Assembly (NCBI RefSeq): GCF_009931435.1
Contig: NZ_CP043414.1
Origin: Escherichia coli
GTDB lineage: Bacteria; Pseudomonadota; Gammaproteobacteria; Enterobacterales; Enterobacteriaceae
Reading direction: 5' to 3' (one strand)
DNA: 64,000 nt
The position numbers and the translations under genes are program-made. Below, one piece after another: positions 37,883-62,289 of this stretch. The stretch's first letter is position 1; each line of letters starts with the position of its first letter. The notes below the pieces were generated by a model. It was not told the DNA's origin and did no database searches. It was given only the letters and a program-made list of their open reading frames with translations.

Positions 37883-39706
37883 TTAATCGTCTTTCGGTGC
37901 GCGGTTGGCGCGACGACGATCGTTTTCCGTCAGGTGACGTTTACGAATACGGATAGAGGTCGGAGTCACTTCTACCAGTTCGTCATCATCGATGAACTCC
38001 AGAGCTTGTTCCAGAGTCATGCGGATAGGCGGAACCAGAACAACGGCTTCGTCAGTACCGGAAGCACGCATGTTGGTCAGTTTCTTACCGGTCAGACAGT
38101 TTACAGTCAGGTCGTTAGAACGGCTGTGAATACCGATAATCTGACCTTCGTAAACTTCTGCACCGTGACCGAGGAACAGCTTACCGCGATCCTGCAGACC
38201 GAACAGCGCGAACGCGACCGCTTTACCCTGACCGTTAGAGATCAGTACGCCATTCTGACGCTGACCCACTTCGCCCGGACGTACGTCGTCGTAGTGGCTG
38301 AAGGTGGAGTACAGCAGACCAGTACCGGAAGTCATGGTCATGAACTCAGAACGGAAGCCAATCAGACCACGGCTTGGGATCACGTAGTCGAGACGTACGC
38401 GGCCTTTACCGTCTGGATTCATGTTTTTCAGGTCGCCTTTACGTTCGCCCAGCGCCTGCATTACAGAACCCTGATGCTGTTCTTCAACGTCCAGAGTCAC
38501 GTTTTCATACGGCTCTTGTTTACGACCGTCAATTTCACGGAAGATAACTTTCGGACGGGATACCGCCAGTTCGAAACCTTCACGACGCATGTTTTCGATC
38601 AGAACAGACAAGTGCAGTTCGCCACGGCCAGAAACGCGGAACGCATCGGCATCTTCGGTTTCTTCTACGCGCAGCGCAACGTTGTGTACCAGTTCTTTGT
38701 TCAGACGATCCAGGATCTGACGAGACGTTACGAACTTACCTTCTTTACCGCAGAACGGTGAGGTGTTAACGCAGAAGAACATAGAAACGGTCGGCTCATC
38801 AACGGAGAGTGCCGGCAGCGCTTCAACGTTTTGCGTGTCGCAAACGGTGTCAGAAATGTTCAGTTCGCCCAGGCCCGTGATCGCCACGATATCGCCAGCT
38901 TCCGCCAGATCGGTTTCGATACGTTCCAGACCGAGGTGGCCCAGCACTTTACCGACTTTCGCGTTGCGGGTTTTGCCTTCGCTATCGATGATAGTAACTT
39001 GCTGGTTCGGCTTCACTTTACCGCGCTTGATGCGGCCAATGCCGATAACGCCAACATAGCTGTTGTAATCGAGCTGAGAAATCTGCATCTGGAACGGACC
39101 GTCAAGGTCAACGTCCGGCGCAGGAACGTGGTCAACAATTGCCTGATACAGCGGGGTCATGTCTTCTGCCATATCTTCGTGGTCCAGACCCGCGATACCG
39201 TTCAGCGCAGAAGCGTAAACGATCGGGAAGTCCAGCTGCTCGTCAGTCGCGTCGAGGTTAACGAACAGGTCGAATACCTGATCCACAACCCAGTCAGGAC
39301 GCGCGCCAGGGCGGTCAACTTTGTTGATAACAACAATTGGCTTCAGGCCGTAAGCAAACGCTTTTTTGGTTACGAAGCGCGTTTGCGGCATCGGGCCGTC
39401 AAATGCGTCAACCACCAGCAGCACTGAGTCTACCATGGACATTACACGTTCAACTTCACCACCGAAGTCGGCGTGCCCCGGGGTATCAACGATGTTGATA
39501 CGGTAATCATTCCATTTGATAGCGGTGTTTTTCGCGAGGATGGTAATCCCACGCTCTTTCTCCAAATCGTTGGAGTCCATCACGCGCTCTTGGGTTTCGG
39601 CACGAGAGTCGAACGTACCGGATTGTTGGAGCAGCTTGTCTACCAGGGTGGTTTTACCATGGTCTACGTGCGCGATGATGGCGATATTACGCAATTTTTC
39701 GATCAC
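37883..39706 (-). CDS. typA: Ribosome-dependent translational GTPase TypA/BipA
   Basis: 607 aa [29 protein letters not shown]... with EF-G-like GTPase motifs. Confidence 0.95.
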
Positions 39707-39856
39707 AACTTTGCCTCAGGCATTAGAAATAGCGCGTTATTGTACACGGATTAATCGCACTACAAAACAGGATCACAAACATCCTCCGCAAACAAGTATT
39801 GCAGAGTCCCTTTGTGATCGCTTTCACGGAGCATAAAAAGGGTTATCCAAAGGTCA

Positions 39857-39905
39857 TTGCACCAATATGGTGCTTAATGTTTCCATTGAAGCACTATATT
39901 GGTGC
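39857..39905 (+). promoter_or_regulatory. NtrC (NRI) enhancer binding sites upstream of glnA
   Basis: Palindromes TGCACCAATATGGTGC (39857-39872) and GCACTATATTGGTGCA (39890-39905), plus further TGCAC/GTGCA half-sites up to about 39950. Confidence 0.7.
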
Positions 39906-39978
39906 AACATTAACATCGTGGTGCAGCCCTTTTGCACGATGGTGCGCATGATAACGCCTTTTAGGGGCAATTTAAAAG

Positions 39979-39995
39979 TTGGCACAGATTTCGCT
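39979..39995 (+). promoter_or_regulatory. sigma54 promoter glnAp2
   Basis: TTGGCACAGATTTCGCT fits the -24 GG / -12 GC sigma54 consensus (TGGCAC-N5-TTGCW-like), about 85 nt upstream of the glnA start. Confidence 0.75.
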
Positions 39996-40078
39996 TTATC
40001 TTTTTTACGGCGACACGGCCAAAATAATTGCAGATTTCGTTACCACGACGACCATGACCAATCCAGGAGAGTTAAAGT

Positions 40079-41488
40079 ATGTCCGCTGAACACGTACTGA
40101 CGATGCTGAACGAGCACGAAGTGAAGTTTGTTGATTTGCGCTTCACCGACACCAAAGGTAAAGAACAGCACGTCACTATCCCTGCTCATCAGGTGAATGC
40201 TGAATTCTTCGAAGAAGGCAAAATGTTTGACGGCTCCTCGATTGGCGGCTGGAAAGGCATTAACGAATCCGACATGGTGCTGATGCCAGACGCATCCACC
40301 GCAGTGATTGACCCGTTCTTCGCGGACTCTACCCTGATTATCCGTTGCGATATCCTTGAACCAGGCACCCTGCAAGGCTATGACCGTGACCCGCGTTCCA
40401 TCGCGAAGCGCGCTGAAGATTACCTGCGTTCTACTGGCATTGCCGACACCGTACTGTTCGGGCCAGAACCTGAATTCTTCCTGTTCGATGACATCCGTTT
40501 CGGCGCGTCTATCTCCGGTTCTCATGTTGCCATCGACGATATCGAAGGTGCATGGAACTCCTCCACCAAATATGAAGGTGGTAACAAAGGTCACCGTCCG
40601 GCAGTGAAAGGCGGTTACTTCCCGGTTCCGCCGGTAGACTCTGCTCAGGATATCCGTTCTGAAATGTGTCTGGTGATGGAACAGATGGGTCTGGTTGTTG
40701 AAGCCCATCACCACGAAGTAGCGACTGCTGGTCAGAACGAAGTGGCTACCCGCTTCAATACCATGACCAAAAAAGCTGACGAAATTCAGATCTACAAATA
40801 TGTTGTGCACAACGTTGCACACCGCTTCGGTAAAACCGCGACCTTTATGCCAAAACCGATGTTCGGTGATAACGGCTCCGGTATGCACTGCCACATGTCA
40901 CTGTCTAAAAACGGCGTCAACCTGTTCGCTGGCGACAAATATGCAGGTCTGTCTGAGCAGGCGTTGTACTACATTGGCGGCGTAATCAAACACGCTAAAG
41001 CAATTAACGCCCTGGCAAACCCGACCACCAACTCTTACAAGCGTCTGGTCCCGGGCTACGAAGCACCGGTAATGCTGGCTTACTCTGCACGCAACCGTTC
41101 TGCGTCTATCCGTATTCCAGTGGTTTCTTCTCCGAAAGCACGTCGTATCGAAGTCCGTTTCCCGGACCCAGCGGCTAACCCGTACCTGTGCTTTGCTGCC
41201 CTGCTGATGGCCGGTCTTGATGGTATCAAGAACAAGATCCACCCAGGCGAAGCCATGGACAAAAACCTGTATGACCTGCCGCCAGAAGAAGCGAAAGAGA
41301 TCCCACAGGTTGCAGGCTCTCTGGAAGAAGCACTGAACGAACTGGATCTGGACCGCGAGTTCCTGAAAGCCGGTGGCGTGTTCACTGACGAAGCCATTGA
41401 TGCGTACATCGCTCTGCGTCGCGAAGAAAATGACCGCGTGCGTATGACTCCGCATCCGGTAGAGTTTGAGCTGTACTACAGCGTCTAA
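40079..41488 (+). CDS. glnA: Glutamine synthetase
   Basis: 469 aa [35 protein letters not shown]... recognised as GlnA. Confidence 0.97.
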
Positions 41489-41549
41489 TAGTTGAAGTTG
41501 TACTACCCGGTGCAAAGAAGGCCGGGATTTAGTTGCCGTGGAAACTTTC

Positions 41550-41576
41550 AGCCCATCTCTGCATGGGCTTTTTTCT
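41550..41576 (+). terminator. Intrinsic terminator in glnA 3' UTR
   Basis: Hairpin AGCCCAT-CTCTGC-ATGGGCT followed by TTTTTTCT; an additional hairpin CCCGGTGCAAAGAAGGCCGGG at 41506-41526. Confidence 0.6.
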
Positions 41577-41662
41577 CCGTAACTTCTTTGATGCTTCGCG
41601 CTTTTTATCCGTAAAAAGCTATAATGCACTAAAATGGTGCAACCTGTTCAGGAGACTGCTTT

Positions 41663-42712
41663 ATGGCAACAGGCACGCAGCCCGATGCTGGGCAGATCCT
41701 CAACTCACTGATTAACAGTATTTTGTTAATTGATGACAACCTGGCAATCCATTACGCCAACCCCGCCGCGCAACAACTACTCGCCCAAAGCTCCCGCAAA
41801 TTGTTTGGTACGCCGTTACCGGAACTGTTGAGCTACTTCTCATTAAATATCGAGCTGATGCAAGAAAGTCTGGAGGCGGGGCAAGGTTTTACCGATAACG
41901 AAGTGACGCTGGTGATCGACGGTCGCTCGCATATCCTTTCTGTGACGGCCCAGCGTATGCCGGACGGCATGATCCTGCTGGAGATGGCACCGATGGATAA
42001 CCAGCGCCGCTTAAGTCAGGAACAGCTACAGCACGCCCAGCAGGTTGCTGCCCGTGATTTAGTGCGCGGCCTGGCGCATGAGATTAAAAATCCGCTTGGC
42101 GGTTTACGTGGCGCGGCCCAGTTGCTCAGCAAAGCATTACCTGACCCGTCACTGCTGGAATATACCAAAGTGATTATTGAACAGGCGGATCGGTTGCGAA
42201 ATCTGGTCGACCGTCTGTTGGGGCCGCAACTGCCCGGTACGCGCGTTACCGAAAGTATTCACAAAGTGGCTGAACGCGTGGTGACGCTGGTGTCGATGGA
42301 ACTGCCGGACAACGTGCGGTTGATTCGTGATTACGACCCCAGCCTGCCGGAACTGGCGCACGACCCGGATCAAATTGAACAGGTATTGCTGAATATTGTG
42401 CGCAATGCGCTACAGGCACTGGGGCCGGAAGGTGGTGAAATCATTCTGCGTACCCGCACCGCGTTTCAACTGACCTTACACGGCGAGCGCTATCGGCTGG
42501 CGGCGCGGATTGATGTGGAAGATAACGGGCCAGGCATTCCGCCTCATTTGCAGGATACGCTGTTTTACCCGATGGTCAGCGGCCGCGAAGGTGGCACCGG
42601 GCTTGGCTTATCCATCGCCCGTAATTTGATTGATCAGCATTCAGGCAAAATTGAATTTACCAGTTGGCCAGGTCATACCGAGTTCTCGGTTTACCTGCCT
42701 ATCAGGAAATAA
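41663..42712 (+). CDS. glnL: Nitrogen regulation sensor histidine kinase NtrB (NRII)
   Basis: 349 aa ORF with H-box HEIKNPLGG. Confidence 0.95.
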
Positions 42713-42723
42713 AGGTGACGTTT

Positions 42724-44133
42724 ATGCAACGAGGGATAGTCTGGGTAGTCGATGACGATAGTTCCATCCGTTGGGTGCTTGAACGTGCGCTCGCTGGAGC
42801 AGGTTTAACCTGTACGACGTTTGAGAACGGCGCGGAAGTGCTGGAGGCGCTGGCGAGCAAAACACCGGATGTACTGCTTTCAGATATCCGTATGCCGGGA
42901 ATGGACGGGCTTGCGCTGCTCAAGCAGATTAAACAGCGCCATCCGATGCTTCCGGTCATCATTATGACCGCACATTCCGATCTGGATGCTGCCGTCAGCG
43001 CCTATCAACAAGGGGCGTTTGATTATCTGCCCAAACCGTTTGATATCGACGAAGCCGTGGCGCTGGTTGAGCGCGCCATCAGCCATTATCAGGAACAGCA
43101 GCAACCGCGTAATGTTCAGCTTAACGGCCCGACGACCGATATCATCGGCGAAGCGCCAGCCATGCAGGACGTGTTCCGGATTATCGGTCGGCTTTCACGT
43201 TCTTCTATTAGCGTGCTGATTAACGGCGAATCCGGCACCGGTAAAGAACTGGTCGCTCATGCCCTGCATCGCCACAGTCCTCGAGCCAAAGCGCCGTTTA
43301 TCGCGCTGAATATGGCGGCTATCCCGAAGGATTTGATCGAATCAGAACTGTTCGGTCACGAGAAAGGCGCGTTTACCGGCGCGAATACCATTCGTCAGGG
43401 GCGTTTTGAACAGGCCGATGGCGGCACGTTATTCCTCGATGAAATTGGCGATATGCCGCTCGATGTACAGACGCGTTTGCTGCGCGTGCTGGCAGACGGT
43501 CAGTTTTATCGCGTTGGCGGCTATGCGCCGGTGAAAGTGGATGTGCGGATTATCGCTGCGACCCATCAGAATCTCGAACAGCGGGTACAGGAAGGCAAGT
43601 TCCGTGAGGATTTGTTCCACCGCCTGAACGTTATCCGCGTTCATCTGCCGCCGCTGCGTGAGCGTCGGGAAGATATTCCCCGTCTGGCACGCCATTTTTT
43701 ACAGGTTGCCGCGCGCGAACTGGGCGTAGAAGCGAAGTTGCTGCATCCGGAAACCGAAGCCGCGCTGACGCGTCTGGCATGGCCGGGTAACGTGCGCCAG
43801 CTGGAAAACACCTGCCGTTGGTTAACGGTGATGGCCGCCGGGCAGGAAGTGTTGATTCAGGATTTGCCTGGCGAACTGTTTGAATCAACGGTTGCGGAGA
43901 GTACTCCGCAAATGCAACCGGACAGTTGGGCAACGCTGTTAGCGCAGTGGGCAGACAGAGCGCTGCGTTCCGGTCATCAAAATTTGCTTTCCGAAGCGCA
44001 GCCTGAGCTTGAGCGGACGTTACTGACGACCGCGTTGCGACATACGCAGGGGCATAAACAGGAAGCTGCGCGGCTACTTGGCTGGGGGCGTAACACCCTG
44101 ACGCGGAAGTTAAAAGAGCTGGGGATGGAGTGA
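42724..44133 (+). CDS. glnG: Nitrogen regulation response regulator NtrC (NRI)
   Basis: Start at [19 protein letters not shown] (469 aa); receiver domain, sigma54-activator AAA+ domain (GESGTGKE), C-terminal HTH. Confidence 0.95.
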
Positions 44134-44244
44134 TTCACAGCTTGTGTGTAAAGATTGATTATTGAGCGCAAATTGCTGGTATTTTGCGCTTTACTGTTCC
44201 GATAAGTTCAGTATGATCTTGCCCGGAAAACGGGGAGAGTCATT

Positions 44245-44355
44245 ATGCTGGAATCAATAATTAATCTGGTATCGAGTGGCGCAGTTGACAGCCACACACC
44301 GCAAACTGCCGTTGCTGCCGTGCTGTGTGCTGCGATGATTGGGCTGTTTAGCTGA
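44245..44355 (+). CDS. yshB: Small membrane protein YshB (36 aa)
   Basis: Short ORF MLESIINLVSSGAVDSHTPQTAVAAVLCAAMIGLFS preceded by GGGGAGAG; below the ORF-track size cut-off; location between glnG and hemN as I recall for yshB. Confidence 0.75.
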   Translation: MLESIINLVSSGAVDSHTPQTAVAAVLCAAMIGLFS

Positions 44356-44364
44356 AGCTCGTTG

Positions 44365-44500
44365 TTTATGCCGGATGCGGAGAAAGTCGTAGGCCTGATA
44401 AGACGCGACCAGCGTCGCATCAGGCATCATGCTCAGATGCCGGATGCCGGATGCCGGATGCCGGATGCCGGATGCCGGATGCAGCGTAAACGCCTTATCC
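44365..44500. repeat. REP/BIME cluster containing a 5-copy GCCGGAT heptanucleotide tandem repeat
   Basis: REP-like palindromes (GCCTGATAAGACGCGACCAGCGTCGCATCAGGC; GCGTAAACGCCTTATCCGGCCTAC) flank five complete GCCGGAT units at 44439-44473. Confidence 0.6.
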
Positions 44501-44618
44501 GGCCTACAAAAGCAATAATTTCAACAGGTTTTCTTAACCAGCGCATCAGGCAATCTTGTTCTCAGCACATTGATGGCGCTTTCGTTTTCTACTTTGTAAA
44601 CGAAGCGCCATTCACCAT

Positions 44619-45992
44619 TTAAATCACTCGTGAGAACTGCTGCATCCGCGCTTTCTGGCGCAGATAGGTATCAAAGCACATGCAAATGTTGCGGATCAGC
44701 AGGCGACCTTTCGCCGTTACCTGAATCCCCTTCTCATCCACATCCACCAGCCCATCTTTTGCTAACGGGGCAAGCAGCTTGAGATCTTCTGCAAAGTAGT
44801 CAGCGAAGTGCAAATCCCACTGTTGCTCAATGGGGGCATAATCCAGACGGAAGTTGCAGATGAGCGACTTAATCACATCGCGACGAATACAGTCATCACG
44901 CGTTAGCGCAATACCACGCCACAGCGCATTGCCTTGTTCATCCACTTGCTGATAGTACTGCTTCAACTCTTTCTGATTCTGCGCGTAGCAGTCGCCAATC
45001 ATGCTAATGGCTGAAACGCCCATCCCCAGCAGATCGGTATCGCCCTGAGTGGTGTAGCCCTGGAAGTTACGATGAAGCACGCCTTCACGTTGGGCCACCG
45101 CCAGCTCATCATCCGGGCGAGCAAAGTGATCCATACCGATAAACTGATAGCCCGATTGTGTCAGGAAGGCGATGGTTTCCTGCAGGATATCGAGTTTTTG
45201 CTGCGGACTCGGCAGGTCAGCATCTTTGATTTTACGCTGAGCAGCAAAAATGGTCGGCAAATGCGCGTAGTTAAAGACACTCAGGCGATCGGGGTTAAGT
45301 TCCGCCACGCGTTTCAGGGTAAAGGCGAAACTCTCCGGCGTCTGTTTCGGCAGGCCGTAAATCAGGTCGATGTTGGTGGAAGTAAAGCCAATCTCACGCG
45401 CATGGTTAAGCAGTGCAAAGATGAACTCTTCATCCTGCTCGCGGTTAACCAGACGTTGCACTTCTTTGTTGAAGTCCTGCACGCCCATGCTCAGGCGATT
45501 AAAGCCTTCGGCGCGTAAATGATCGAGTACATCCAGTTCGATTTCCCGCGGATCGACTTCGATCGAAATCTCCGCATCGGCATTGAACTGGAAGTTTTCG
45601 CGCAGCAACTTCATCAGTCGGCTGATTTGCGCTTTGTTCAGATACGTCGGCGTACCACCGCCCCAGTGCAATTGGCTGACGTGACGCCCGGCGAACAGCG
45701 GTGCACGATGGACGATTTCTTGCTCCAGCGCGTCCAGATACTGATCGGCCTTGTGCTGCTGGCGAGTAACAATCTTATTGCAACCGCAGAAGTAACAAAG
45801 CTTATGGCAGAACGGGATATGTACGTAGAGAGATAATGGACGCTCAGGATAGCGCGCCACGGCTTGTAAAAACGCCTGTTCGCCGAAGTCTTCTGAAAAC
45901 TCCAGCGCGGTCGGGTACGAGGTGTATCGTGGCCCGGAATAGTTATATTTCTGGATCAGGGCCAGATCCCAGTCGATTTGCTGTACAGACAT
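44619..45992 (-). CDS. hemN: Oxygen-independent coproporphyrinogen III oxidase (radical SAM)
   Basis: Start at MSVQQIDWDLALIQKYNYSGPRYTSYPTALEF (457 aa); radical-SAM CxxxCxxC (CHKLCYFCGC). Confidence 0.95.
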   Translation of the reverse strand: MSVQQIDWDLALIQKYNYSGPRYTSYPTALEFSEDFGEQAFLQAVARYPERPLSLYVHIPFCHKLCYFCGCNKIVTRQQHKADQYLDALEQEIVHRAPLFAGRHVSQLHWGGGTPTYLNKAQISRLMKLLRENFQFNADAEISIEVDPREIELDVLDHLRAEGFNRLSMGVQDFNKEVQRLVNREQDEEFIFALLNHAREIGFTSTNIDLIYGLPKQTPESFAFTLKRVAELNPDRLSVFNYAHLPTIFAAQRKIKDADLPSPQQKLDILQETIAFLTQSGYQFIGMDHFARPDDELAVAQREGVLHRNFQGYTTQGDTDLLGMGVSAISMIGDCYAQNQKELKQYYQQVDEQGNALWRGIALTRDDCIRRDVIKSLICNFRLDYAPIEQQWDLHFADYFAEDLKLLAPLAKDGLVDVDEKGIQVTAKGRLLIRNICMCFDTYLRQKARMQQFSRVI

Positions 45993-46690: not shown

Positions 46691-46758
46691 AATGGTTCGT
46701 CTTTTAGCCGTTTTATTCAGTATAGATTTGCGGCGGAATCTAACAGAAAGCAAGCAAA

Positions 46759-47001
46759 GAAAAAAGGCGACAGATTACTCTGTCGCCTTTTTTCCTGACT
46801 CATAACCCTTAACGGGTCTTACAATCCCTGCAGGCCGCCAACACACCCTGTTTTTCCATTAGCCGGAACAATCCGTGTTGATTCCATTTCCGTTTAATTA
46901 CGTCTCCGGACGTTTGTCTTCCTGACAATCCTCTGTCTTCGCCTCCTGGCGCTCCTGACCCTCATCCTGAGTCATTGTTCCTGTTAGCGTCCTCGCTCTA
47001 T
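46759..47001 (-). ncRNA. csrC: CsrC small RNA (CsrA-sequestering)
   Basis: Minus-strand sequence reads ATAGAGCGAGGACGCTAACAGGAACAATGACTCAGGATGAGGGTCAGGAGCGCCAGGAGG..., with many GGA motifs, ending in hairpin GGCGACAGAGTAATCTGTCGCC plus U-tract; matches CsrC as I remember it. Ends +/- a few nt. Confidence 0.85.
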
Positions 47002-47998: not shown

Positions 47999-48107
47999 TA
48001 AAAAACGCCCCAGTCATTACTGACTGGGGCGGCTAAAATATTCAGCCAAATCCGATTACGTGAAGTAAAAGGTCTGAAAGATAGAACATCTTACCTCTGT
48101 ACCCTAC
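47999..48107 (-). ncRNA. spf: Spot 42 small RNA
   Basis: Minus-strand sequence GTAGGGTACAGAGGTAAGATGTTCTATCTTTCAGACCTTTTACTTCACGTAATCGGATTTGGCTGAATATTTTAGCCGCCCCAGTCAGTAATGACTGGGGCGTTTTTTA recognised as Spot 42; lies just downstream of polA. Confidence 0.9.
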
Positions 48108-48254
48108 GCGACTAACTTTACTCTTTTTTGTTCAGTTCAGAAAGCATTTTTTGTAATTTTTTTTCAGTTGTTGCATAGGAATTTCTAATAGCCATCACAA
48201 AACGTGACAGCTTATGTTGCTTACTTACGAAAAAAGGGCATGTTCAGGCGAATC

Positions 48255-57183: not shown

Positions 57184-57303
57184 ATGCCTGGCAGTTCCCT
57201 ACTCTCGCATGGGGAGACCCCACACTACCATCGGCGCTACGGCGTTTCACTTCTGAGTTCGGCATGGGGTCAGGTGGGACCACCGCGCTAAGGCCGCCAG
57301 GCA
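57184..57303 (-). rRNA. rrfA: 5S ribosomal RNA
   Basis: 120 nt matching E. coli 5S rRNA on the minus strand (TGCCTGGCGGCC...GGAACTGCCAGGCAT), with one apparent difference near the 5' end (CTTAGCG rather than the CGTAGCG I recall). Confidence 0.95.
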
Positions 57304-57396
57304 AATTCTGTTTCATCAGACCGCTTCTGCGTTCTGATTTAATCTGTATCAGGCTGAAAATCTTCTCTCAATCCGCCAAAACATCTTCGGCGTTGT

Positions 57397-60301
<2,905 letters not shown>

Positions 60302-60484
60302 TCACAACCCGAAGATGTTTCTTGCGATTCATCATCGTGTTGCGAAAATTTGAGAGACTCACGAACAACTTTCGTTGTTCAGTGTTTCAATTTTCAGCTT
60401 GATCCAGATTTTTAAAGAGCAAAACTTCGCAGTGAACCTTTGCAGGTACACTCTGAAGTATTTTTTATTTAATCACTACAGAGA

Positions 60485-60560
60485 TGGTGGAGCTATGCGG
60501 GATCGAACCGCAGACCTCCTGCGTGCAAAGCAGGCGCTCTCCCAGCTGAGCTATAGCCCC
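60485..60560 (-). tRNA. alaT: tRNA-Ala (UGC), 16S-23S spacer
   Basis: Reverse complement is GGGGCTATAGCTCAGCTGGGAGAGCGCCTGCTTTGCACGCAGGAGGTCTGCGGTTCGATCCCGCATAGCTCCACCA. Confidence 0.97.
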
Positions 60561-60602
60561 ATAACATGTAGTTAAAACCTCTTCAAATTTGCGGTGCAAA
60601 TT

Positions 60603-60679
<77 letters not shown>

Positions 60680-60747
60680 GTAGAGGTTTTACTGCTCATT
60701 TTCATCAGACAATCTGTGTGAGCACTGCAAAGTACGCTTCTTTAAGG

Positions 60748-62289
<1,542 letters not shown>

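What the first reader, a model, noticed from the sequence alone, without database searches (positions are those of the whole stretch)
41489..41576. Structured glnA 3' UTR: possible 3'-UTR-derived sRNA (GlnZ-like)
Two hairpins (41506-41526 and 41550-41569) with a terminal U-tract follow the glnA stop. glnA 3' UTRs in enterobacteria have been reported to give rise to a processed sRNA, and this architecture is compatible.
Basis: partly seen in the sequence, partly recalled or inferred. Interest (0 to 1): 0.3.

Follow-up and report, generated by a model that had tools for sequence, protein, structure and literature searches.

The report
Known GlnZ small RNA, short type
The structured stretch after the glutamine synthetase gene is the already described E. 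coli small regulatory RNA GlnZ (short "O157 type", also published as EsrF), here in a rare allele that differs only at the tip of its first hairpin, so the finding is correct but ordinary.

Summary
Window 41489-41574 is the glnA 3' UTR of an E. coli glnA-glnL-glnG locus, and both hairpins sit at the stated coordinates. The stretch matches the 85-nt EsrF/GlnZ RNA mapped by RACE in E. coli O157:H7 EDL933, apart from 3 substitutions and 1 inserted base. All four differences lie in the apical part of hairpin 1.

It lies between hairpin 1 and a 7-bp intrinsic terminator with a U6 tail. In a genome carrying the identical allele, the seed region is complementary to the published target sites in the sucA, glnP and aceE leaders.

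The seed-terminator module follows glnA in 110 species genomes across Enterobacterales, and the seed and U6 tail are invariant in all of them. Hairpin 1 is lineage-specific and variable.

The most likely mechanism is taken from the literature. NtrC/sigma-54-driven glnA mRNA is cut by RNase E, and the released Hfq-bound RNA represses sucA, glnP and aceE under nitrogen limitation.

This exact allele occurs in about 0.3% of complete E. coli genomes. It is already known and of low interest.

The parts
39859..39905 (+). Two NtrC-type palindromes (GCAC-N6-GGTGC) upstream of glnA, at 39859-39873 and 39891-39905. They are the enhancer for nitrogen-limitation induction of the parental mRNA.
   Evidence: 5 matches in the window against 0.66 expected by chance, and 3 of the sites are in the gln locus. 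Their role as NtrC sites rests on established knowledge of glnAp2.
39980..39995 (+). Sigma-54 promoter-like element TGGCAC-N5-TCGCT (glnAp2), which drives glnA and hence GlnZ.
   Evidence: One search gives an exact match at 39980-39995. Its identity as glnAp2 comes from established knowledge. Walling et al. report that GlnZ induction requires NtrC.
40079..41488 (+). glnA coding sequence (469 aa glutamine synthetase). This is the parental mRNA from whose 3' end the sRNA is released.
   Evidence: RefSeq annotation of the identical locus in NZ_CP027579.1.
41463..41467 (+). Candidate upstream RNase E site AG|UUU (RN|WUU consensus) inside the glnA 3' end. Cleavage here would give a ~110-nt precursor.
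   Evidence: Motif scan. PMC9731577 reports two RNase E sites flanking the stop codon in K-12, the upstream one conserved in Salmonella. The assignment here is an inference.
41489..41574 (+). GlnZ sRNA, short 'O157 type' / Class I (also called EsrF), 86 nt. It spans the whole glnA 3' UTR, from the first base after the stop codon to the 5th U of the terminator tail.
   Evidence: Alignment to EDL933 EsrF. EsrF ends were mapped by RACE. The K-12 glnZ (b4836) 3' end also falls on the 5th U.
41506..41526 (+). Hairpin 1, a lineage-specific 5' stem-loop. In this allele it has 5 G-C pairs plus 1 U-G pair and a 9-nt loop. All 4 differences from EDL933 lie at 41511-41520.
   Evidence: The stem is shared with Enterobacter spp., the loops differ, and there are no compensatory changes. 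It is absent from many Enterobacterales.
41524..41532 (+). GGGAUUUAG, the motif Jia et al. reported as essential for EsrF binding to the flhB 5' UTR. It also contains RN|WUU matches (GG|AUU, GA|UUU), where cleavage would leave a ~47-48-nt seed-plus-terminator species.
   Evidence: Motif from PMC8092317, intact in the window. RNase E consensus matches (inference).
41533..41544 (+). Seed UUGCCGUGGAAA, which pairs with the sucA, glnP and aceE leaders.
   Evidence: Published seed. One exact copy in the window. Invariant in 110 of 110 glnA-linked loci across Enterobacterales. Complementary target sites found in strain 2013C-4282.
41550..41575 (+). Rho-independent terminator: a 7-bp stem, a 6-nt loop and a U6 tail. 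It forms the sRNA 3' end and the Hfq-binding module.
   Evidence: The U6 tail is present in 110 of 110 homologues, and the stem shows compensatory variants in Yersinia and Plesiomonas.

Best explanation
[quoted passage not shown] It is the short form called 'O157 type' (Miyakoshi et al. 2022), 'Class I' (Walling et al. 2022) or EsrF (Jia et al. 2021).

The proposed mechanism is as follows. Under nitrogen limitation, NtrC activates the sigma-54 promoter glnAp2. Transcription of glnA stops at the intrinsic terminator at 41550-41575. RNase E, with Hfq, cuts near the stop codon and releases an ~86-nt RNA, and possibly shorter species cut after hairpin 1. The single-stranded seed UUGCCGUGGAAA (41533-41544) pairs with the leaders of sucA (2-oxoglutarate dehydrogenase E1), glnP (glutamine permease) and aceE (pyruvate dehydrogenase E1) and represses them. 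This keeps 2-oxoglutarate available for nitrogen assimilation.

Shown here at the sequence level: location, seed, terminator, near-identity to the mapped RNA, target complementarity, the promoter motifs, and deep conservation of the seed-terminator module. Taken from the literature and inferred for this strain: induction, RNase E and Hfq dependence, and repression of the targets.

The four differences from the common allele sit in the loop and top of hairpin 1 and are predicted to be functionally neutral.
For: Gene context is typA< glnA> glnL> glnG>. The window is E. coli: 5425 of 5426 complete genomes match, and NZ_CP027579.1 is 100% identical.

The published seed is present exactly and only once. 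Apart from 3 substitutions and 1 inserted base, the stretch is identical to the RACE-mapped 85-nt EsrF of EDL933, and all differences lie within 41511-41520. The terminator has z = -3.2, and its 3' end is equivalent to that of K-12 glnZ b4836.

In strain 2013C-4282, which carries the same allele, the seed region pairs with three leaders. For sucA the site is -48..-27, -20.4 kcal/mol, with 15 of 1000 shuffled 23-mers as good. For glnP it is -22..-11, -18.4 kcal/mol, 41 of 1000. For aceE it is -105..-91, -20.8 kcal/mol, 2 of 1000. These positions agree with the published sites (aceE C-99; glnP just upstream of the SD).

Predicted seed accessibility is the same in both alleles, with opening energies of 3.85 and 3.84 kcal/mol. 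The seed-terminator module lies 10-322 nt downstream of a GlnA C-terminus in 110 of 120 pattern hits across Enterobacterales. The UU preceding the searched core and the U6 tail are invariant although the pattern did not force them. The glnAp2-like element and NtrC palindromes are present.

Northern blots in the literature show that O157-type GlnZ is induced on glutamine or low nitrogen and represses glnP, sucA and aceE. RNase E and Hfq are required for its release.
Against: No expression data exist for this strain. Rfam 15 has no GlnZ family, and the window scores only 28.8 bits against the related Ysr49 model, whose gathering score is 95. The whole-UTR fold is not better than shuffles (z about -0.7). 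Hairpin 1 is weakened in this allele (-10.6 against -14.9 kcal/mol), which could in principle change stability or processing. The target duplex statistics are modest for glnP (41 of 1000). The RNase E sites were mapped in K-12 and Salmonella, not in the O157 type, and Jia et al. reported a TEX-resistant 5' end, which suggests a primary transcript.
Confidence: 0.9

Rival explanations
1. EsrF model (Jia et al. 2021). The 85-nt RNA is an independent primary transcript from a promoter inside the glnA 3' end. It is repressed by NtrC, induced by high ammonium, and activates flhB (motility, virulence) through the GGGAUUUAG motif.
For: PMC8092317 reports a 5' end at the T right after the stop codon, TEX resistance, unchanged abundance in a glnA-promoter deletion, and RNA-RNA gel shifts with the flhB leader that depend on GGGAUUUAG. 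That motif is intact at 41524-41532.
Against: The consensus scan finds no sigma-70-like promoter on the + strand upstream of 41489. Two independent studies found the O157 RNA induced by low, not high, nitrogen and derived from glnA mRNA. No GlnZ appears without induction of a PBAD-glnA construct, and none accumulates in an RNase E ts mutant. In the window, one base of the predicted 18-nt EsrF-flhB interaction (C to G at 41520) differs from EDL933. The flhB target itself was not examined here and is not excluded as an additional target.
Confidence: 0.1
2. The region is only a cis-acting 3' end: a terminator plus a stabilising hairpin for glnA mRNA, which also sets read-through into glnLG. It has no trans-acting function.
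For: A terminator between glnA and glnL is expected for the known partial read-through operon. Deleting the terminator slightly lowers GlnA in K-12. glnLp with its NtrC site follows at 41620-41640.
Against: A plain terminator does not explain a 12-nt single-stranded sequence that is invariant in 110 of 110 species while the rest of the UTR varies from 10 to 322 nt. It also does not explain that sequence's complementarity to three validated targets. Swapping the UTR types did not change GlnA or NtrC levels.
Confidence: 0.03
3. The rare hairpin-1 allele is functionally distinct. The weaker stem and larger loop change RNase E processing, Hfq loading or half-life, and so give a strain-specific GlnZ dosage.
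For: Hairpin 1 loses 4.3 kcal/mol and one base pair relative to the common allele. All 4 UTR differences cluster within 10 nt. The allele is rare: 16 of 5426 genomes are at least 99% identical over 41470-41600, and 3 are at 100%.
Against: The whole glnALG locus is about 3% diverged from EDL933, so the UTR changes fit ordinary lineage divergence. The hairpin-1 loop varies freely among Escherichia and Enterobacter, and many species lack the hairpin altogether. Predicted seed accessibility is unchanged.
Confidence: 0.07

Closest known systems
GlnZ 'O157 type' (Miyakoshi et al. 2022, eLife, PMC9731577) = 'Class I' GlnZ (Walling et al. 2022) = EsrF (Jia et al. 2021, mBio, PMC8092317)
   Same: Same locus, strand and boundaries, running from the first base after the glnA stop to the terminator U-tail. 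Same architecture of 5' hairpin, seed and terminator. The 5' 22 nt, the GGGAUUUAG motif, the seed, the linker and the terminator are all identical.
   Different: 86 nt rather than 85 nt, with 3 substitutions and 1 inserted A at the top of hairpin 1 (41511, 41514, 41517, 41520). The stem loses one G-C pair, another becomes U-G, and the loop grows from 6 to 9 nt. This allele is found in about 0.3% of complete E. coli genomes.
GlnZ of E. coli K-12 (glnZ, b4836, 194 nt; 'K-12 type' / Class III)
   Same: Same seed, same terminator and 3' end, same parental gene, and same targets sucA, glnP and aceE.
   Different: In K-12 the seed lies 10 nt after the stop codon and is followed by a ~150-nt REP-derived long stem-loop. 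There is no hairpin 1. In the window the seed directly precedes the terminator.
GlnZ 'O111 type' (230-nt 3' UTR) and Salmonella GlnZ (185-nt 3' UTR, Class II)
   Same: Seed adjacent to the terminator. The O111 type is the short type with an insertion after hairpin 1.
   Different: The window lacks the ~145-nt extra segment seen in strain 2013C-3513 and the long upstream spacer of Salmonella.
Rfam RF02766 Ysr49 (Yersinia sRNA 49)
   Same: Ysr49 covers exactly the glnA 3' UTR of Y. pestis (L080:3863-3986, 159.7 bits). Its 3' 40 nt are the GlnZ seed plus terminator. It is therefore the Yersinia orthologue of GlnZ.
   Different: The 5' 80 nt are unrelated to the E. coli sequence. The window scores 28.8 bits against a gathering score of 95, so it is not a member of the family as Rfam defines it.
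Other RNase E-released, Hfq-dependent 3'-UTR sRNAs (SdhX, CpxQ, SroC, NarS)
   Same: Same general mode: a seed and a terminator shared with the parental mRNA, release by RNase E, and regulation within the pathway of the parental gene.
   Different: Different genes, seeds and targets, with no sequence relationship.

Membership tests
GlnZ (glnA 3'-UTR-derived sRNA) | Lies immediately downstream of the glnA stop codon on the same strand, upstream of glnL | tested here: met
   glnA is at 40079-41488 (+), the UTR at 41489-41575, and glnL starts at 41663.
GlnZ (glnA 3'-UTR-derived sRNA) | Conserved seed 5'-UUGCCGUGGAAA-3' | tested here: met
   Exact match at 41533-41544, the only copy in the window even with up to 1 mismatch allowed. 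Seed as published in PMC9731577.
GlnZ (glnA 3'-UTR-derived sRNA) | Rho-independent terminator with a U-tail shared with glnA mRNA (the Hfq-binding 3' module) | tested here: met
   7-bp stem at 41550-41569 plus U6, z = -3.2. Identical to the EDL933 and K-12 terminators.
GlnZ, O157 type / Class I / EsrF | ~85-nt 3' UTR with the seed directly upstream of the terminator, and sequence identity to the mapped EDL933 RNA | tested here: met
   86 nt. It differs from the 85-nt EsrF by 3 substitutions and 1 insertion, all in the apex of hairpin 1.
GlnZ (glnA 3'-UTR-derived sRNA) | Seed complementary to the validated target sites in the sucA, glnP and aceE leaders | tested here: met
   Tested in NZ_CP027579.1, which carries the same allele. 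sucA: -20.4 kcal/mol (15 of 1000 shuffles). glnP: -18.4 (41 of 1000). aceE: -20.8 (2 of 1000). All at the published positions.
GlnZ (glnA 3'-UTR-derived sRNA) | Parental transcription from the NtrC/sigma-54-dependent glnAp2 | tested here: met
   TGGCAC-N5-TCGCT at 39980-39995. NtrC palindromes at 39859-39873 and 39891-39905. This is sequence motif evidence only.
GlnZ (glnA 3'-UTR-derived sRNA) | Accumulates under nitrogen limitation, is released by RNase E, and depends on Hfq | not testable with these tools
   Only RN|WUU consensus matches could be located, at 41463-41467 and 41525-41530. The experimental evidence is for the K-12, Salmonella, O157 and O111 alleles.
Rfam RF02766 Ysr49 | Score at or above the family's gathering threshold (95 bits) | tested here: not met
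   28.8 bits, E = 5e-4 to 1e-3, and only the seed-terminator part aligns well. Y. pestis scores 159.7 bits.

The most novel reading that the evidence does not exclude
The rare hairpin-1 allele has a weaker stem and a 9-nt loop, and one base of the reported EsrF-flhB pairing region is changed. It might therefore alter processing, half-life or target range of GlnZ in the small E. coli lineage that carries it, giving strain-specific tuning of the carbon/nitrogen balance or of motility.
Probability: 0.06. Interest if true: 0.2.

Novelty: already known. Interest (0 to 1): 0.1.

Why it matters
GlnZ links nitrogen assimilation to TCA-cycle flux by repressing 2-oxoglutarate dehydrogenase and glutamine import when glutamine synthetase is induced. 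Recognising it here adds nothing new biologically, but it does three small things.

- It shows the first-stage reader can correctly flag a 3'-UTR sRNA from raw sequence.
- It documents that standard annotation resources miss this RNA. The five PGAP-annotated RefSeq records examined here list no ncRNA at this position, and Rfam 15 has no GlnZ family.
- It indicates that Rfam's Ysr49 is the Yersinia orthologue of GlnZ. A broader seed-plus-terminator model would annotate GlnZ throughout Enterobacterales.

Tried and rejected
- The Rfam gathering-threshold scan of the whole window found no family at the site. In the permissive scan, the hits to anti-hemB, mir-202 and Betaproteobacteria toxic sRNA (E = 0.07-3.6) were dismissed as terminator-driven chance matches.
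- Full-length sRNA-leader duplexfold gave long, bulged 'duplexes' no better than shuffles (37-83 of 300), because it ignores intramolecular structure. I discarded these in favour of the 23-nt seed-region analysis.
- My first NtrC pattern had the wrong spacing (N7) and found nothing. The corrected N6 pattern worked.
- A paper search for 'EsrF' alone returned synchrotron papers. NC_002655.2 is not in the collection. My first script failed on file naming.
- I considered that the UTR differences mark a local recombination patch. I rejected this because the whole glnALG locus is about 3% diverged from EDL933.
- I looked for covariation support for hairpin 1 in Escherichia plus Enterobacter. There were no compensatory pairs, only wobble changes, so the stem is conserved by descent rather than proven by covariation.
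- Small ORFs overlapping the UTR (41492-41614 and 41533-41715) and the 243-aa antisense ORF (40898-41629) run across the terminator or mirror glnA, and I did not pursue them.
- About 7 of the 120 genome-contig hits (Clostridia, Pseudomonas and others) lack glnA context and are chance matches. Three or so more are cut by contig ends.

Full report
**Observation**

The window around the finding reads typA (-), glnA (+, 40079-41488, 469 aa), a 174-nt spacer, glnL (+, from 41663) and glnG. The stop codon TAA is at 41486-41488.

- Hairpin 1 is CCCGGU/GCCGGG at 41506-41526. It has five G-C pairs, one U-G pair and a 9-nt loop, and folds at -10.6 kcal/mol (z = -1.9; 10 of 200 shuffles as stable).
- Hairpin 2 is AGCCCAU/AUGGGCU at 41550-41569, followed by T6 at 41570-41575. 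It folds at -10.1 kcal/mol (z = -3.2; 1 of 200 shuffles) and is reported by the terminator scan.

The 86-92-nt stretch as a whole is not more stable than shuffles (z = -0.6 to -0.7). The terminator is clearly non-random, and hairpin 1 only modestly so.

**Identity**

The window is E. coli. The stretch 41400-41700 matches 5425 of 5426 complete genomes and is 100% identical to strain 2013C-4282 (NZ_CP027579.1).

Three published studies describe an sRNA from the glnA 3' UTR.
- Miyakoshi et al. (PMC9731577) classify E. coli glnA 3' UTRs into K-12 type (197 nt), O157 type (85 nt) and O111 type (230 nt). They give the conserved seed as 5'-UUGCCGUGGAAA-3'.
- Walling et al. (bioRxiv 10.1101/2022.04.01.486790) call the short form Class I. 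They equate it with EsrF of EHEC.
- Jia et al. (PMC8092317) mapped EsrF by RACE as exactly 85 nt, starting at the T next to the glnA stop codon (EDL933 coordinates 4939965-4940049).

I fetched that EDL933 segment and aligned it. Window 41489-41574 is colinear with EsrF and differs by three substitutions and one inserted A, all between 41511 and 41520 at the top of hairpin 1. The window reads CCCGGTGCAAAGAAGGCCGGG against CCCGGCGCAACAACGCCGGG in EDL933. The 5' 22 nt, the GGGAUUUAG motif, the seed, the linker, the terminator and the U-tail are identical.

The published seed is present exactly at 41533-41544, the only copy in the window.

The K-12 reference annotates glnZ (b4836, 194 nt) with its 3' end on the fifth U of the same terminator. 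This corresponds to 41574 here. An alignment of the window with short-type, O111-type and K-12 sequences reproduces the three published architectures.

**The allele**

Over 41470-41600, only 16 of 5426 complete genomes are at least 99% identical (3 at 100%). Four are intermediate, and 5402 fall at 90-95%.

The changes cost hairpin 1 one G-C pair, turn another into U-G, and enlarge the loop from 6 to 9 nt (-10.6 against -14.9 kcal/mol). They do not mark a local patch. The entire glnA-glnL-glnG segment differs from EDL933 by about 3%, mostly at third codon positions.

Predicted seed accessibility is the same in both alleles, with opening energies of 3.85 and 3.84 kcal/mol. One base of the 18-nt EsrF-flhB pairing region predicted by Jia et al. 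differs (41520). Their essential 9-nt motif is intact.

**Targets**

The target genes lie outside the window, so I located them in the genome that carries the identical allele. The 23-nt seed region (GlnZ nt 39-61) pairs with three leaders.

| Target | Site sequence | Position relative to AUG | Energy (kcal/mol) | Shuffled 23-mers as good |
|---|---|---|---|---|
| sucA | UAUCCACGGCGA | -48..-27 | -20.4 | 15 of 1000 |
| glnP | CCACGGUAAC | -22..-11 | -18.4 | 41 of 1000 |
| aceE | CGCGGCAACUAAA | -105..-91 | -20.8 | 2 of 1000 |

 These positions agree with the published interaction sites: aceE C-99, glnP just upstream of the SD, and sucA upstream of the TIR.

**Conservation**

One scan of species-representative genomes used the pattern GCCGTGGAAA-N2-10-GCCC-N8-16-GGGCTTTT. 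In 110 of them the match lies 10-322 nt downstream of a GlnA C-terminus (EFELYYSV*). These span Citrobacter, Enterobacter, Klebsiella, Kluyvera, Pantoea, Erwinia, Pectobacterium, Dickeya, Serratia, Rahnella, Yersinia, Plesiomonas and others.

Features that the pattern did not force are invariant. UU precedes the core in 110 of 110 loci, giving the full 12-nt seed, and the tail is exactly U6 in 110 of 110. The terminator stem shows compensatory variants in Yersinia (C-G to U-A) and Plesiomonas (AU/UA to GC/CG).

[quoted passage not shown] Twenty-seven species have 25 nt or less and no hairpin at all. Hairpin 1 of the window is shared with several Enterobacter species, with different loops, only wobble changes and no compensatory pairs. 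The conserved functional core is therefore the seed plus terminator. Hairpin 1 is a lineage-specific, tolerant element. It is plausibly a 5' protective stem-loop, but that is an inference.

**Rfam**

No family reaches its gathering score at the site. The best sub-threshold hit is RF02766 Ysr49 (28.8 bits; gathering score 95). In Y. pestis, Ysr49 scores 159.7 bits and spans exactly the glnA 3' UTR. It starts at the first base after the stop, and its last 40 nt are the GlnZ seed and terminator.

Ysr49 is therefore the Yersinia orthologue of GlnZ. The main texts of both GlnZ papers mention neither Yersinia nor Rfam.

**Mechanism**

The sequence shows the following.
- A glnAp2-like sigma-54 element at 39980-39995 and NtrC palindromes at 39859-39873 and 39891-39905.
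- An intrinsic terminator, and a single-stranded seed next to it.
- RN|WUU RNase E consensus matches at 41463-41467, inside the glnA 3' end. Cleavage there would give a ~110-nt precursor.
- Further RN|WUU matches at 41525-41530, right after hairpin 1. Cleavage there would leave a ~47-48-nt seed-terminator species.

The literature supplies the rest.
- O157-type GlnZ is induced on glutamine or upon nitrogen depletion.
- GlnZ is produced from glnA mRNA, and its release requires RNase E and Hfq.
- Release from the mRNA is needed for SucA repression.
- EsrF/O157 GlnZ represses glnP, sucA and aceE through the seed.

For this strain, all of these steps are inferred.

**Rivals**

The EsrF model of Jia et al. 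proposes an independent promoter, induction by high ammonium and activation of flhB. Two later studies contradict it on regulation and biogenesis. It also finds no support in a sigma-70 consensus scan of the glnA 3' end. flhB as an additional target is not excluded and was not tested here.

A purely cis-acting terminator or attenuator role does not explain an invariant 12-nt single-stranded seed across more than 100 species. UTR swaps also left GlnA and NtrC levels unchanged.

A functional difference for the rare allele is possible but unsupported.

**Verdict**

The finding is correct and its interpretation is supported. The element is the already known GlnZ sRNA (short O157/Class I type, also called EsrF) in a rare but probably neutral allele. 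Novelty: already known. Interest: low.

Noticed in passing
L080:3863-3986 (Yersinia pestis NCTC5923); window 41469-41574: Rfam RF02766 Ysr49 spans exactly the glnA 3' UTR of Y. pestis (159.7 bits), and its 3' 40 nt are the GlnZ seed plus terminator. Ysr49 is therefore the Yersinia orthologue of GlnZ. The main texts of the two GlnZ papers do not mention this link, and Rfam has no GlnZ family or clan.
   Followed up: partly
L011-L130 (genome-contig hits): The 12-nt seed UUGCCGUGGAAA and an exactly 6-U terminator tail are invariant in 110 of 110 glnA-linked loci across Enterobacterales, while the stop-to-seed spacer ranges from 10 to 322 nt. Most species have a GCCCAUC-UUCG/UCCG-GAUGGGC terminator. 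Among the 110 glnA-linked loci, only the E. coli one carries the Escherichia version with the CUCUGC loop.
   Followed up: partly
window 41620-41640: A perfect TATAAT (41620-41625) overlaps an NtrC-type palindrome GCACTAAAATGGTGC (41626-41640), 46 nt downstream of the GlnZ terminator. This fits the known NtrC-repressed glnL promoter. The simple promoter scan did not report it, for lack of a -35 match.
   Followed up: partly
window 39788-39895 (-): An Rfam ES222 sRNA match (133 bits) lies in the typA-glnA intergenic region on the minus strand. It overlaps the NtrC binding sites of the glnA enhancer (39859-39873 and 39891-39905).
   Followed up: no
window 44356-44471: A ~110-nt insertion relative to EDL933 sits downstream of glnG. 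It is made of CCGGATGC-type repeats (REP/BIME-like), which translate as the repetitive 'MPDAGCRMPDAGCR' ORFs in the ORF list.
   Followed up: no
window 38200-44800: The whole typA-glnALG segment is about 3% diverged from O157:H7 EDL933, mostly at third codon positions. The glnA 3' region is 100% identical to only 3 of 5426 complete E. coli genomes, so the window comes from an uncommon E. coli lineage or carries an imported gln locus.
   Followed up: partly
L005 (NZ_CP030939.1, strain AMSHJX01): In this genome glnA and the 5' part of the UTR are missing. The glnL-proximal half of the spacer is joined to frameshifted ybhP/clsB pseudogene fragments, and glnL itself is annotated as frameshifted. 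This is either a rearranged locus or a low-quality assembly.
   Followed up: no
window 46748-47001 (-), 47999-48117 (-), 57186-62289 (-), 10551-10609 (+): Other Rfam gathering-threshold hits in the window are CsrC, Spot 42, a complete rrn operon (16S, two tRNAs, 23S, 5S, plus StyR-44) and a SECIS_3 element.
   Followed up: no
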